64,000 nucleotides of DNA from an uncultured Candidatus Saccharibacteria bacterium (GTDB taxonomy: Bacteria > Patescibacteriota > Saccharimonadia > Saccharimonadales > Saccharimonadaceae): NCBI GenBank assembly GCA_964492765.1, contig CAZBLB010000001.1:1736-65735 (forward strand), written 5' to 3'. Both the position numbers and the translations under genes were made by a program. The notes under the pieces were generated by a model. That model saw only the letters and a list, made by a program, of their open reading frames with translations. It searched no databases and had not been told where the DNA came from. This document shows, piece after piece, positions 3,931 to 61,327 of the stretch. Position 1 is the stretch's first letter; each line of letters starts with the position of its first letter.

Positions 3931-4017
3931 TGGTGGGCAACTCGGGAATCGAACCCGAACTCCCTTGCGGGAACCAGATTTTGAGTCTAGCGCGTCTACC
4001 AGTTCCGCCAGTCGCCC
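3931..4017 (-). tRNA. tRNA-Leu(CAA)
   Basis: Reverse complement GGGCGAC...TGGTAGACGCG CTAGA-CTCAAAA-TCTGG, long variable arm, GGTTCGATTCC T-arm, encoded CCA; 87 nt. Confidence 0.96.
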
Positions 4018-59144: not shown

Positions 59145-59519
59145 TTATATATCGAGGTCGTCCAAGTCTTTCAGCTCAGCCCGAGTTTTGTCCGCTACGC
59201 TCTCGTCGGCTTCCTCAGTCTCAGCCTTTTCACTCGCTTCATCCGCCTCTGTCGTTCCACCAGTCTCCGCCCCATCCGTATTCACAATTTTAAGGTTATA
59301 GCGCGCATCGTTCTTCGTTCCAAGCGCCCTAAGAAGCGTACGAATAGACTGCGCCGTTACCCCACGCTTGCCAATCACGCGCCCCACGTCTTCTGGATCA
59401 ACCGACAGAGAAAGAAGCACGCCTTTTTCATCAATTTTTCTTTCAACAGAAACTTTATCTGGATTATTAACGAGAGTTTTCACGATATACTCAACAAATT
59501 GCTGGTCGATGGTTGACAT
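59145..59519 (-). CDS. khpA: KH-domain RNA-binding protein KhpA
   Basis: VDPEDVGRVIGKRGVTAQSIRTLL (GxxG KH loop). Confidence 0.92.
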   Translation of the reverse strand: MSTIDQQFVEYIVKTLVNNPDKVSVERKIDEKGVLLSLSVDPEDVGRVIGKRGVTAQSIRTLLRALGTKNDARYNLKIVNTDGAETGGTTEADEASEKAETEEADESVADKTRAELKDLDDLDI

Positions 59520-59694
59520 TTTTTGCTCCATGTTATTATTTTACCCCTATTATATCACAAACCTTCGCGCTCGCGCCAAAAAAATCGCCCCCTGTTGGGG
59601 GGCGTGGCCAGAAACGGCGCGGAAAAATCGGTAGAAAATCACGGAGCGAACAGCTAGGCAAGAGCCGAAACGAAACGGGCGTAAAAGTCGCGTT

Positions 59695-60138
59695 TTACGA
59701 CTGCTTCGCCTCGCGTTCTTTGCGCTTCGCCTCCACCTTCTTATACATCTCCTCAATCTCATAAAGAGACATCGGCATCGGCACGTCCTTCTTCACCTCT
59801 CTCGCGACGACTCTTCTGTAATAGTCTCTTCGGCTAGCCGACAGATGAAGATTGTTTAAGATTGCCGACTTGTCGCGAGCAGAAGCAGAAAGCGGGATAC
59901 CTTCGGCGTGCGCCACGTCCACGAGTCGGTCAAACCTTCGCGACACTTTTCCGTTCGCGTCGCTTAGTCGCCTCTCAAGACGGTCCCACTCTCCGTGGTA
60001 TCTTTCATTAAAAAGCTCAATCACGCGAGGATGCGGAGTCCGCTCCAGAAGCTCCTTCTTCATAAAATAAATGCGATTAAACGCACCAATATCTTTCAGG
60101 AGCCCCAAAATTTCCAGATAATAAGTTGCGATAGACAC
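59695..60138 (-). CDS. hypothetical basic protein (147 aa)
   Basis: GTG start, GGGGGTG RBS, upstream TGCTATAAT; Arg/Lys-rich; no motif recognised. Confidence 0.75.
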   Translation of the reverse strand: MSIATYYLEILGLLKDIGAFNRIYFMKKELLERTPHPRVIELFNERYHGEWDRLERRLSDANGKVSRRFDRLVDVAHAEGIPLSASARDKSAILNNLHLSASRRDYYRRVVAREVKKDVPMPMSLYEIEEMYKKVEAKRKEREAKQS

Positions 60139-60315
60139 CTATATCACCCCCTAAAAGGTCTATCCTTTTATTATAGCACAAAACTCAAGAAAAATCAACC
60201 TCAAGCCTTCACCACCCCTAATCAAGCCCCATCCCCGCACAACACTAATAAACCCCACAAACCACCGCGCCCCACACGCTCCGTGCCCAAACCAACCCAA
60301 AAAATCCCCACCACC

Positions 60316-60415
60316 AAAAAACCACCGGTAGCCAAACCCGTGGATTTTTGAACATATAAGCTCTCAACTTTTATGTGTAAAGCCGACTCGCAGTTAGCTT
60401 TGTTCAAAAAGAACT
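60316..60415 (-). ncRNA. putative structured sRNA or riboswitch-like leader (~100 nt)
   Basis: Follows a consensus promoter; TTTTTGAACA/TGTTCAAAAA stem enclosing two hairpins, then a GC hairpin and T6. Confidence 0.45.
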
Positions 60416-60421
60416 ATACCC

Positions 60422-60450
60422 AGTATACTCAAATTTCTTATGCTTGTCAA
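60422..60450 (-). promoter_or_regulatory. consensus sigma70 promoter
   Basis: TTGACA-17 bp-TATACT on the minus strand. Confidence 0.85.
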
Positions 60451-60466
60451 GATTTTTTTGAAAAAT

Positions 60467-60491
60467 AAAATCGCCCCCTGTCTAGGGGGCG
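60467..60491 (-). terminator. terminator, AAAATCGCCCC family
   Basis: Minus strand CGCCCCC-TAGACA-GGGGGCG-ATTTTATTTTT downstream of 60552-60995. Confidence 0.7.
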
Positions 60492-60551
60492 TAGGTTTTT
60501 TGGGTTCTAACTAGCCGACGTCTCGGATAATTAATGTTCTGAACGGACGTC

Positions 60552-60995
60552 TCAGCCAATCGCTTTCGTCACAATCTTCCACGCCGTAAGTCTCGGAAAA
60601 ATCGTCGCAATCAGCGCCAGCTCGCGGTCGAAAAGCACAGCCCCCTCCACGGTATTGTTCGGCTTACGCGCAGGTATCTCCGGGGTCGTATAGCAGGCCA
60701 GCTCGCATTTCGGCGCACCCTCGATGTCGGGTCTCAGTGGCCTCGCCACCACGTCGTGTCCACGACTCGGCGCATACACCGCAATCTTGTCCACCCAGAC
60801 TTCCGCGCCCAGGCTAATTCCACTGCCGGCCGCAAAGCCAAACACCATCACGTCCGCCATCTGCGGAATATTCAGTCTCTTGGCCGCGTCGAGCGACCAA
60901 ATCCCTCCCTTGATTAAATAAATCTGGTGGCCGAACTTGCTAAACCTCTCGCGCGCAAAGGCGTACTCTCTAGGCTCCGTTGTCAGGATATGCAT
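60552..60995 (-). CDS. degenerate nucleoside phosphorylase / MTA-SAH nucleosidase-fold protein
   Basis: Motif order matches PNP_UDP_1 (HILTTEPRE; LIKGGIW; VMVFGFAAG; LFDRELALI; KIVT); GGAGGTG RBS before ATG 60995. Confidence 0.65.
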   Translation of the reverse strand: MHILTTEPREYAFARERFSKFGHQIYLIKGGIWSLDAAKRLNIPQMADVMVFGFAAGSGISLGAEVWVDKIAVYAPSRGHDVVARPLRPDIEGAPKCELACYTTPEIPARKPNNTVEGAVLFDRELALIATIFPRLTAWKIVTKAIG

Positions 60996-61051
60996 AAAAA
61001 CACCTCCGTTCCTGCATGCTCCCAAAAGTTCTAATGTGCTACGGATTTCCA

Positions 61052-61080
61052 ACTATAAACCGTTTCCGCCCTTTTGTCAA
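61052..61080 (-). promoter_or_regulatory. sigma70 promoter
   Basis: TTGACA-17 bp-TATAGT on the minus strand. Confidence 0.8.
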
Positions 61081-61125: not shown

Positions 61126-61327
61126 AAATCTCACAAATTTCTCGTCTTTGCCTCTTTACTTTTTCAATAAAATCCGCTAAAATATTTTTCAAGAAGCAGT
61201 TTGCCGAATTTTTTTGTAGCAAGAAGGGACCGGCGACCCGTCTTGTTAAAAACTCGGCAGTAATCTTCGGCGCTAAAGATTATCTCCCTCAAAAGGGAAC
61301 TACCAAACTTAACCAAAAAGGACCCCC

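What the first reader, a model, noticed from the sequence alone, without database searches (positions are those of the whole stretch)
60316..60450. Promoter- and terminator-bounded ~100-nt three-way-junction RNA candidate
Seen (minus strand): perfect TTGACA-17-TATACT, then GUUC UUUUUGAACA [AAGCUAAC-UGCGA-GUCGGCUU] UACAC [AUAAAAGUUGAGAGCUUAUA] UGUUCAAAAA U CCACGG-GUUUGGCUA-CCGGUGG UUUUUU. A 10-bp closing stem encloses two hairpins, and the 5' GUUC can alternatively pair with GAAC, which is switch-like. There is no RBS-led ORF, and the downstream gene has its own promoter. I do not recognise it as a purine, c-di-GMP, SRP, 6S or tmRNA element.
Basis: partly seen in the sequence, partly recalled or inferred. 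Interest (0 to 1): 0.62.

Follow-up and report, generated by a model that had tools for sequence, protein, structure and literature searches.

The report
Conserved small RNA of Saccharibacteria

Summary
The promoter, the stems and the terminator are all present at 60316-60450 on the minus strand. The unit is conserved. A covariance model finds exactly one copy in 138 of 301 genomes of the same order (Candidatus Saccharibacteria, including Nanosynbacter and Nanosyncoccus). It finds none in about 378 genomes of other orders of the phylum. No Rfam 15 family matches.

The conserved fold is not a three-way junction. It is one bent hairpin: P1 (AAGCUC:GAGCUU, AAGCU:AGCUU in the window), an invariant 5' bulge (N1-3)UGCGAG, and a strongly covarying P2. 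A single-stranded UAUGUG tail and a variable intrinsic terminator follow.

The usual context is rnc-rpsP-khpA-sRNA-(rpoB or trmD). The sRNA promoter often lies inside the last khpA codons. The order has no Ffh/FtsY and no SRP RNA, so this is not a divergent SRP RNA. It is also not a cis riboswitch, because the terminator is independent of the conserved core and the downstream gene varies.

My best guess, about 0.35, is a trans-acting RNA bound by KhpA/KhpB. Transcript evidence is weak because only assembled contigs were available.

The parts
60445..60450 (-). -35 hexamer TTGACA of the sRNA promoter
   Evidence: A -35/-10 pair sits at the same distance in all 27 aligned homologues.
60422..60427 (-). 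-10 hexamer TATACT, 17-nt spacer. The predicted transcription start is about A60415, 7 nt downstream.
   Evidence: The start site is inferred from spacing and from the conserved A of AGUUC; it has not been mapped.
60402..60414 (-). 5' hairpin GUUC-UUUUU-GAAC. It is optional: absent in about half of the genus and replaced by other 5' hairpins plus an AAAACAAAAA linker in other families.
   Evidence: One compensatory variant is seen (GUUU..AAAC in L011).
60396..60400 (-). P1 5' strand AAGCU (AAGCUC in most of the order)
   Evidence: 95% of cells paired and the sequence is nearly invariant. Compensatory variants are AAUCU:AGAUU (L079) and GGGCUC:GAGCC (L230).
60387..60395 (-). Asymmetric bulge AACUGCGAG. 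UGCGAG was invariant in all aligned copies; one copy found by eye has CGCGAG (L232).
   Evidence: The same 9-mer sits in loops of other conserved non-coding hairpins.
60380..60386 (-). P2 5' strand UCGGCUU
   Evidence: 5 of 6 modelled P2 pairs show changes on both sides, 94% of cells are paired, and 0 of 500 shuffles reach the observed score.
60364..60370 (-). P2 3' strand AAGUUGA (part of the conserved GUUGAGAG block)
   Evidence: P2 variants include UCAUCU/AGAUGA, UCAAACA/UGUUUGA, CCAUC/GAUGG, CAGUAAAC/GUUUACUG and CCAGCCGG/CCGGCCUGG.
60358..60362 (-). P1 3' strand AGCUU. G60363 lies opposite A60395 at the helix junction.
60344..60357 (-). Conserved single-stranded tail AUAUGUUCAAAAAU (UAUGUGAYAAAA in most of the order).
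60316..60343 (-). Intrinsic terminator: CCACGG-GUUUGGCUA-CCGGUGG followed by U6
   Evidence: The stem sequence differs in nearly every homologue while the hairpin and U-tract are kept.
59145..59531 (-). khpA-like gene (KH_KhpA-B domain, GKRG motif intact). It is the usual upstream neighbour of the sRNA; in the window it lies downstream with a 147-aa ORF in between.
   Evidence: PF13083, E = 7e-23; the sRNA lies within 1.5 kb of khpA in 52 of 80 loci.

Best explanation
Window 60316-60415 (minus strand) is a real small non-coding RNA gene. It belongs to a previously undescribed family confined to one order of Candidatus Saccharibacteria. It is transcribed from its own near-consensus sigma-70 promoter and ends at its own intrinsic terminator (shown by sequence and conservation; the transcript ends are not mapped). 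The conserved core is a bent hairpin. P1 (AAGCU:AGCUU) and a covarying P2 are separated by an invariant single-stranded bulge, (AAC)UGCGAG. A conserved single-stranded tail, UAUAUGU, follows (shown by covariation). My inferred mechanism is that it acts in trans as a protein-bound RNA, most likely with the KH-domain proteins KhpA and KhpB. khpA is its usual 5' neighbour, and in many genomes the last khpA codons carry the sRNA promoter. The short single-stranded UGCGAG bulge and the UAUGUG tail, held in place by the sequence-invariant P1, would be the contact sites. The RNA would either titrate the protein away from mRNAs and other small transcripts that display the same AACUGCGAG(G) motif in hairpin loops, or be stabilised and delivered by it. 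My confidence that it is a genuine conserved structured sRNA is about 0.9. My confidence in the KhpA/B protein-binding mechanism is about 0.35.
For: Promoter and terminator are confirmed in the window and conserved in position in 27 of 27 genus homologues, while the terminator sequence changes. There is one copy per genome. The structure-aware model R2 hits 138 of 301 genomes of the order (103 of 217 genera), and none of the roughly 378 genomes from other orders in the 401-genome phylum sample. Extra divergent copies are seen by eye 3' of khpA in genomes the model missed. For covariation, 94.5% of cells are paired, 5 of 6 P2 pairs change on both sides, 0 of 500 shuffles reach the score, and slid registers reach at most 52%. 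Single-sequence folding of distant members recovers P1-bulge-P2. Synteny is rnc-rpsP-khpA-sRNA-rpoB/trmD, with the sRNA within 1.5 kb of khpA in 52 of 80 loci and mostly 50-250 nt behind its stop on the same strand. The TTGCAG..TATAAT promoter is embedded in the codons for ..AELAELDDLDI*. KhpA has an intact GXXG motif (GKRG), and a KH+R3H KhpB-like protein is encoded in the same genome. KhpA and KhpB are global sRNA-binding proteins in bacteria that lack Hfq and ProQ (PMC11039985; bioRxiv 10.64898/2026.10.12.757534). The 9-mer AACUGCGAG recurs in loops of other conserved intergenic hairpins whose stems covary. No ORF is conserved.
Against: There is no direct evidence of the transcript's ends or abundance. 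Only assembled contigs of public runs could be laid, and some of them run through the promoter or past the terminator. No KhpA/B binding motif is known, so the protein link rests on gene adjacency alone. In the window itself the sRNA is not directly behind khpA. khpA is present in genomes and orders that lack the sRNA. The motif is only modestly enriched genome-wide: 7.8 versus 5.6 control occurrences per genome for the 9-mer, and rank 12 of 120 permutations for intergenic UGCGAG. A sequence-invariant P1 plus single-stranded conserved stretches would fit a base-pairing RNA equally well.
Confidence: 0.4

Rival explanations
1. It is a trans-acting base-pairing sRNA, built like the 3'-UTR-type sRNAs that have their own promoter inside the upstream coding sequence (DapZ or MicL style). 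The bulge UGCGAG or the tail (C)UUUAUGUGA would be the seed that pairs with mRNAs.
For: It has conserved single-stranded stretches next to a stable scaffold and a Rho-independent terminator. In many genomes the promoter lies inside the khpA 3' end and no terminator separates khpA from the sRNA.
Against: The own genome has no second site complementary to the 11-mer, 10-mer or 9-mer bulge motif; every occurrence is a sense copy. The tail differs between lineages (UAUGUUCAAAAA, UAUGUCUAAAAA, UAUGUGAYAAAA). No target prediction across genomes could be run, and no Hfq-type chaperone was looked for.
Confidence: 0.25
2. It is a cis-acting operon element: a punctuation terminator or attenuator behind rpsP-khpA that sets read-through into the next gene (rpoB or trmD). 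This might work through a ribosome parked on the SD-like GGGAG plus AUG-UGA 'start-stop' just before the terminator.
For: It lies between khpA and rpoB or trmD on the same strand in most genomes. GGGAG-N4-AUG is frequent, and AUG-UGA occurs in 34 of 133 copies. The terminator also serves the khpA transcript.
Against: rpoB has its own promoter and its own conserved leader downstream of the terminator, and trmD has its own extended -10 promoter. In the window and several other genomes the unit sits elsewhere or on the other strand yet keeps its promoter, core and terminator. AUG is absent in 14 of 133 copies. The terminator shares no sequence with the conserved core.
Confidence: 0.12
3. One reading: a ligand-sensing, switch-like three-way-junction RNA (a riboswitch-like element).
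For: In this lineage three folds lie within 4 kcal/mol of each other, and GAAC can pair with either GUUC. The invariant bulge next to a helix junction could form a pocket.
Against: The junction stems are not conserved outside the lineage. There is no expression platform, because the terminator is independent of the core. There is no constant downstream gene and no Rfam riboswitch match.
Confidence: 0.04
4. It is a highly divergent version of a universal housekeeping RNA, either SRP (4.5S) RNA or 6S RNA. This was prompted by the absence of any detectable SRP or 6S RNA in this genome.
For: No RF00169 or RF00013 match appears anywhere in the genome. The size is about 100 nt, the promoter is strong, and the gene sits in the operon that carries ffh in many bacteria.
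Against: The partner proteins are absent too. No Ffh or FtsY is found in the genome, and no credible SRP54-type GTPase in 40 relatives: one strong hit in a contaminated MAG and two marginal P-loop-level hits. The RNA has no GNRA-capped domain IV, the P2 loop is variable, and it is far too short and of the wrong shape for 6S.
Confidence: 0.02

Closest known systems
Type I 3'-UTR-derived sRNAs with a promoter inside the upstream gene (e.g. DapZ, MicL of enterobacteria)
   Same: In most genomes the sRNA promoter overlaps the last codons of the upstream gene (khpA). The sRNA shares the terminator that also ends the upstream mRNA. It is about 100 nt long and has a structured body plus single-stranded conserved stretches.
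   Different: There is no sequence or structural relation. It occurs in a different phylum, the Hfq dependence that defines those examples is unknown here, and no targets are known. In the window the unit is detached from khpA.
Protein-titrating sRNAs (CsrB/RsmZ for CsrA)
   Same: A short invariant motif is displayed in single-stranded loops or bulges, and the same motif appears in hairpin loops of 5' UTRs and other transcripts. The promoter looks strong and constitutive.
   Different: There are only one or two motif copies per RNA instead of many. The motif is UGCGAG, not GGA. The partner protein is only guessed, and no CsrA link exists.
RNA genes encoded next to their protein partner (tmRNA-SmpB, Y RNA-Rsr, FinP-FinO)
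   Same: The RNA gene keeps a conserved adjacency to the gene of a dedicated RNA-binding protein (khpA).
   Different: There is no homology to any of these RNAs, and binding has not been shown.
Bacterial small SRP RNA (Rfam RF00169)
   Same: It is about 100 nt, mostly one hairpin with an asymmetric internal loop, and sits near rpsP.
   Different: It has no domain IV consensus, no GNRA tetraloop and no covariance-model match. The whole order lacks Ffh and FtsY.

Membership tests
Any Rfam 15 family | Covariance-model match at or near the family's gathering score | tested here: not met
   At gathering threshold the only hit in the 64-kb window is a tRNA at 3934-4017. A permissive scan of 60100-60600 at E<=10 gives only hits of 13-18 bits, far below every cut-off.
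Bacterial small SRP RNA | Domain IV motif (symmetric and asymmetric loops, GNRA tetraloop) detectable by RF00169 | tested here: not met
   No RF00169 match at E<=1 in the genome. There is one sub-threshold hit in 60 relatives. The P2 apical loop varies in length and sequence.
Bacterial small SRP RNA | Partner protein Ffh (and receptor FtsY) encoded in the genome | tested here: not met
   No ORF carries the GKT[TS] and D[TS][AS]G motifs together. PF00448 gives no credible hit in the own genome or 40 relatives: 3 genomes reach the cut-off, one strongly in a contaminated MAG and two marginally at P-loop level, while controls are 14/14.
6S RNA | Rod of about 180 nt with a central bubble, detectable by RF00013 | tested here: not met
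   No RF00013 match. The RNA is about 100 nt with a different architecture.
Transcription-terminating riboswitch or attenuator | The terminator competes with the conserved aptamer helix (a shared strand) | tested here: not met
   Terminator stems differ in almost every homologue and share no bases with P1 or P2.
Transcription-terminating riboswitch or attenuator | Constant, functionally related downstream gene without its own promoter | tested here: not met
   The downstream gene is rpoB, trmD, an orphan ORF or a gene on the opposite strand. rpoB and trmD have their own promoters.
Type I 3'-UTR-derived sRNA | Own promoter inside or at the end of the upstream coding sequence, with a shared terminator | tested here: met
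   TTGCAG-18-TATAAT overlaps the khpA stop codon in many families, and no terminator lies between khpA and the sRNA. In the window itself this feature is not met, because the upstream neighbour is a 166-aa ORF with its own terminator.
Type I 3'-UTR-derived sRNA | Acts by base pairing with mRNA targets through a conserved seed | not tested
   Only a search for perfect complements of the 9-11-nt motif in the own genome was done, and it found none. No cross-genome target prediction was possible.
Protein-sequestering sRNA (Csr/Rsm-like logic) | Repeated copies of the protein's recognition motif in single-stranded loops | tested here: inconclusive
   There is one UGCGAG in the window RNA and two in several families (L043, L045, L054, L065). 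A second GUUGAG in the terminator loop occurs in about 16 of 27 genus members (my count by eye from the sequences). The partner is unknown.
KhpA/KhpB-associated RNA | Physical binding to KhpA/KhpB | not testable with these tools
   Only adjacency and the presence of both proteins could be shown. No binding motif for KhpA/B has been published.

The most novel reading that the evidence does not exclude
The RNA is the hub of a lineage-specific post-transcriptional network in Saccharibacteria. A KhpA/KhpB (or other) protein reads the (AAC)UGCGAG(G) motif displayed in bulges and hairpin loops of several small transcripts, 5' UTRs (for example a T4SS-pilin-like gene) and terminators. This abundant sRNA sets the free pool of that protein. 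That would make it a Csr-like system invented in a CPR lineage which has also lost the SRP pathway.
Probability: 0.15. Interest if true: 0.8.

Novelty: new member of a known kind. Interest (0 to 1): 0.6.

Why it matters
Saccharibacteria are the best-studied lineage of the Candidate Phyla Radiation and include cultivable, genetically tractable human oral epibionts. In the literature I searched, no regulatory RNA has been described for them. This RNA is single copy, conserved across the order and covariation-supported, with invariant single-stranded motifs, and it sits next to khpA. It is therefore a concrete and testable entry point into RNA-based regulation in these reduced genomes. It could also provide the first defined high-affinity ligand for the poorly understood KhpA/KhpB proteins. 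The covariance model built here could be used to annotate the family.

Tried and rejected
- **Rfam:** scans at gathering and at E<=10 gave nothing.
- **Divergent SRP RNA:** I considered this seriously because RF00169 finds nothing in the genome or in 60 relatives. I rejected it because Ffh and FtsY are absent as well and the RNA lacks domain IV features.
- **6S RNA:** rejected.
- **Small protein:** rejected, because AUG is not conserved and frame lengths run from 1 to more than 40 codons.
- **Three-way junction:** rejected as the conserved fold.
- **RNA-seq support:** only Logan contigs were available. The sRNA core is present in RNA-labelled runs at higher word depth than the upstream gene, but contigs also cross the promoter and terminator, so this is inconclusive.
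- **Alignments:** MAFFT alignments A1 and A2 mis-place a UAAC insertion in half of the genus, so I used model-based alignments A3-A5 instead.
- **Complementary targets:** a search for perfect complements of the bulge motif in the genome found none.
- **Motif enrichment:** genome-wide enrichment of UGCGAG or AACUGCGAG is only modest.
- **K-turn:** I considered a K-turn reading of the bulge (GA opposite GA), but the loop is 7-8 nt rather than 3 and the register conflicts with P2, so I dropped it.
- **23S similarity:** AGCUCACUG resembles the 23S GTPase-centre sequence (compared from memory), but the CACUG part is not conserved in the family, so I treat it as chance.
- **Literature:** searches on Saccharibacteria sRNA, CPR structured RNA, KhpA motifs and two 2026 language-model surveys found no description of this RNA.

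Full report
**Observation**

On the minus strand the window reads TTGACA (60450-60445), a 17-nt spacer and TATACT (60427-60422). The RNA sequence that follows is AGUUCUUUUUGAACAAAGCUAACUGCGAGUCGGCUUUACACAUAAAAGUUGAGAGCUUAUAUGUUCAAAAAUCCACGGGUUUGGCUACCGGUGGUUUUUU, ending at 60316.

The gene upstream (166 aa, 61052-60552) ends with its own terminator at 60491-60472. The gene downstream (147 aa, 60138-59695) has its own promoter at 60198-60170. The 100-nt RNA folds better than dinucleotide shuffles (MFE -27.3 kcal/mol, z = -2.6).

**Is it known?**

Rfam 15 gives nothing for this stretch at gathering threshold. A permissive local scan at E<=10 gives only noise.

**Organism**

The window lies in a 604-kb, 48% GC genome. 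Public records of close relatives are titled Candidatus Saccharibacteria or Candidatus Nanosyncoccus, from ruminant guts, with Candidatus Nanosynbacter among the more distant carriers.

**Conservation**

- The unit is single copy in its genome.
- blastn finds it in about 29 of 36 genomes of the genus.
- In all 27 homologues I cut out, a sigma-70-like promoter sits at the same distance. The block CUGCGAG is invariant in all 27, and the blocks (AAGC/GGC)U(A/U)AC and GUUGAGAG(C/U)UU are nearly so. The RNA always ends in a hairpin plus U-tract whose stem differs from genome to genome.
- A sequence-only model (R1) reached other families of the order.
- A structure-aware model (R2) finds exactly one copy in 138 of 301 genomes of the order (103 of 217 genera).
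- In the 401-genome phylum sample every one of the 12 hits lay within the order; the roughly 378 genomes of other orders and classes gave none.
- Genomes that R2 missed often carry a visibly homologous but more divergent copy behind khpA. Others have trmD or a plain terminator there instead.

**Structure**

The wider family shows what the genus alone hides. The consensus is 5'-AAGCUC-(N1-3)UGCGAG-[P2 hairpin]-GAGCUU-UAUGUGAYAAAA-terminator.

- P2 changes freely while staying paired. Examples are UCAUCU/AGAUGA, UCAAACA/UGUUUGA, CCAUC/GAUGG, CAGUAAAC/GUUUACUG, CCAGCCGG/CCGGCCUGG, and UCGGCUU/AAGUUGA in the window.
- On 53 distinct sequences, 94.5% of cells are paired and 5 of the 6 modelled P2 pairs show changes on both sides. 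None of 500 column shuffles reaches the observed covariation, and sliding the partner by 1-3 columns drops pairing to 27-51% (a first pass is). That alignment was fitted to the model, which favours the structure. However, the pairs are obvious in the raw sequences, and single-sequence folding of distant members returns P1-bulge-P2 on its own.
- P1 is almost invariant in sequence. Rare compensatory variants exist: AAUCU:AGAUU in L079 and GGGCUC:GAGCC in L230.

In window coordinates:

| Element | Coordinates |
|---|---|
| P1 | 60400-60396 with 60362-60358 |
| Bulge AACUGCGAG | 60395-60387 |
| P2 | 60386-60380 with 60370-60364 |
| Tail | 60357-60344 |
| Terminator stem | 60343-60322 |
| U6 | 60321-60316 |

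- His first hairpin pairs the 5' strand of P1 with the 5' strand of P2. His second hairpin pairs the two 3' strands. In this lineage the four strands resemble each other (AAGCU/AAGUU and GGCUU/AGCUU), so both arrangements are possible, and RNAfold slightly prefers the local one.
- Outside the lineage the first of these hairpins can form in only 8% of copies.
- His 10-bp closing stem needs the 5' GUUC/GAAC hairpin and a GUUC tail. Half of the genus has no 5' hairpin and has the tail UAUGUCU. Other families have UAUGUGA.
- When the closing stem is enforced in the window RNA, the best interior is P1+P2 at -26.9 kcal/mol, against -27.3 for the MFE and -23.3 for 5' hairpin plus P1+P2.
- The window RNA may therefore alternate between a rod and a beads-on-a-string form, but a three-way junction is not the conserved shape.

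**Coding potential**

An AUG stands in the tail in 119 of 133 distinct copies and is CUG or UUG in the rest. The frame behind it runs from one codon (AUG-UGA, 34 copies) to more than 40 codons, with no conserved peptide. The RNA is non-coding.

**Context**

- In 80 loci fetched with the KhpA-like protein of the window, the sRNA lies within 1.5 kb in 52. It is mostly 50-250 nt behind the khpA stop codon on the same strand.
- The dominant order is rnc-rpsP-khpA-sRNA-rpoB. In other families trmD follows instead.
- In many genomes the promoter TTGCAG-18-TATAAT is written in the codons for ..AELAELDDLDI-stop of khpA.
- rpoB has its own promoter and its own conserved leader after the sRNA terminator.
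- In the window the arrangement is rearranged. On the minus strand the order is 166-aa ORF, sRNA, 147-aa ORF, khpA, with rpoB on the plus strand from 61328. The unit nevertheless keeps its promoter, core and terminator.
- This portability, the free variation of the terminator and the changing downstream gene all argue for a trans-acting RNA rather than a leader.

**Housekeeping RNAs**

The genome has no detectable SRP RNA, so I tested whether this could be a divergent one. None of 60 relatives has an SRP RNA above threshold either. However, the proteins are missing too:

- no ORF has the SRP-GTPase motifs;
- PF00448 finds no Ffh or FtsY in the own genome or in 40 relatives, including a closed genome. 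Apart from one strong hit in a contaminated MAG, two relatives just reach the cut-off with P-loop-level hits of 22.7-22.9 bits. All 14 control genomes score.

The RNA also lacks a GNRA-capped domain IV. It is not SRP RNA, and it is not 6S.

**Mechanism**

What is shown is a conserved scaffold that displays two invariant single-stranded stretches, UGCGAG and UAUGUG, beside a sequence-invariant helix. The rest is inferred.

- I favour a protein-bound RNA with KhpA/KhpB as partner. khpA adjacency is the most conserved feature of the locus.
- KhpA here keeps its GXXG motif (GKRG).
- A KH+R3H KhpB-like protein is encoded on contig 2.
- KhpA and KhpB are described as global sRNA-binding proteins in bacteria without Hfq or ProQ, and no sequence motif is known for them (PMC11039985; bioRxiv 10.64898/2026.10.12.757534).

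One further lead supports this reading. The exact 9-mer AACUGCGAG, usually followed by G, sits in the loops of other conserved non-coding hairpins:

- a hairpin followed by GUAGAGUGUGGAGUUAUU, found in eight genomes with covarying stems;
- a second promoter- and terminator-bounded unit, found in five genomes, that also has a UAUGUAUGA stretch;
- terminator loops;
- in the own genome, a hairpin between the Shine-Dalgarno sequence and the AUG of a T4SS-pilin-like gene.

This pattern fits a shared reader of the motif, with the sRNA acting as competitor. The overall enrichment is modest, however, and nothing here shows binding. A base-pairing role is the main rival.

**Transcript evidence**

Only assembled contigs of public runs could be laid.

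- In one RNA-labelled run the core of the Nanosynbacter-type copy has word depth of about 48-76, while 640 nt of the upstream gene have none.
- A wastewater metatranscriptome holds a relative's copy at depth 18.
- However, contigs also cross the promoter and run past the terminator.

This is compatible with expression but not decisive.

**Verdict**

- The reading as a novel independent ncRNA is supported.
- The three-way-junction and switch model is not supported.
- The element is a new, order-wide, covariation-supported sRNA family of Saccharibacteria with an unknown function that can be tested.

Noticed in passing
whole genome G000 and relatives (not in the window): The whole order appears to lack the SRP pathway. 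There is no SRP RNA (RF00169) in the own genome or in 60 relatives. No Ffh or FtsY (PF00448) is found in the own genome or in 40 relatives, including a closed genome, apart from two marginal P-loop-level hits at the cut-off and one strong hit in a 76%-complete, 3%-contaminated MAG, which is probably contamination. All 14 control genomes score. I found no paper stating this. If true, it is notable in its own right.
   Followed up: partly
G000 contig C5 about 8962 (minus); L163, L170, L171, L180, L182, L190, L194: Hairpin family 'X' has the form stem-UAACUGCGAGGAAAA-stem followed by UUUUGUAGAGUGUGGAGUUAUUU. It is conserved in at least 8 genomes of the genus, with covarying stems (GACCGG, GGCCGG, AGCCGG, GGUCGG, AAUCGGU), and lies in non-coding DNA. 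The loop carries the same 9-mer as the sRNA bulge.
   Followed up: partly
L244:950-1110 and L246:930-1080 (also L166, L172, L175, L185, L192): Family 'Y' is a second promoter-bounded (TTGACA..TATAAT) and terminator-bounded unit of about 90 nt in 5 relatives. It has a hairpin UUUUAAGUAG-AAUAAACUGCGAGG-CUACUUAAAA with a covarying stem, then UAUGUAUGACCU, then a terminator. In L244 the terminator loop again holds UAUGCGAGC. It looks like a sibling sRNA. It was not found in the window's own genome.
   Followed up: partly
G000 contig C7 about 2725 (minus); L167/L247: A terminator hairpin GGGCGC-UCAAAACUGCGAGG-GCGCCC followed by a U-tract is conserved between two genomes (family 'Z'). L184 is a further terminator with UUUAAACUGCGAGAA in its loop.
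   Followed up: no
G000 contig C16 about 1355 (minus): The hairpin AAUAA-UCAUUAACUGCGAGU-UUAUU lies between an AAAGGA Shine-Dalgarno-like site and the AUG of a T4SS/TrbC-type pilin-like gene, directly after a TATAAT box. The Shine-Dalgarno site is about 27 nt from the AUG unless the hairpin forms.
   Followed up: no
window 61185-61327 (+), and L091-L153 between the sRNA and rpoB: rpoB has its own conserved leader of about 130 nt: (C)AAGAAG(U/C)AGU(G/U)UGCC ... GGCAGUAAUCUUCGGCGCUAAAGAUUAU ... AACACUAAUAAAGAGG. The hairpin UAAUCUU-CGGCGCU-AAAGAUUA is also present in the window at 61257-61283. It has no Rfam match at gathering threshold.
   Followed up: no
window 60200-60315 (minus strand); G000 contig C2, offset about 49700 on its minus strand (reverse-complement numbering): Strongly G-rich, C-poor tracts (GGUGGUGGGGAUUUUUUGGGUUGGUUUGGG...) fill the spacer after the sRNA terminator. 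A similar tract on C2 ends in three UGCGAG repeats about 13-15 nt apart (GGUUGCGAGAAAGUUGCGAGGAAAAUAAAUGCGAGG).
   Followed up: no
window 60552-61052 (-) and 59695-60138 (-): The two ORFs flanking the sRNA (166 aa and 147 aa) have no Pfam match at E<=0.01. Related genomes carry other, mostly opposite-strand, ORFs inserted between the sRNA and rpoB, so this spacer accumulates insertions.
   Followed up: no
L018, L022, L024, L029, L031, L034, L036 etc. (terminator loops of genus homologues): In about 16 of 27 genus members, counted by eye, the loop or 3' arm of the sRNA terminator contains a second GUUGAG(AG), the same words as the P2-3'/P1-3' junction of the core. In L022 it even reads GUGCGAAAGUUGAGAG, a miniature of the core. 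The window has only GUUUGG there.
   Followed up: no
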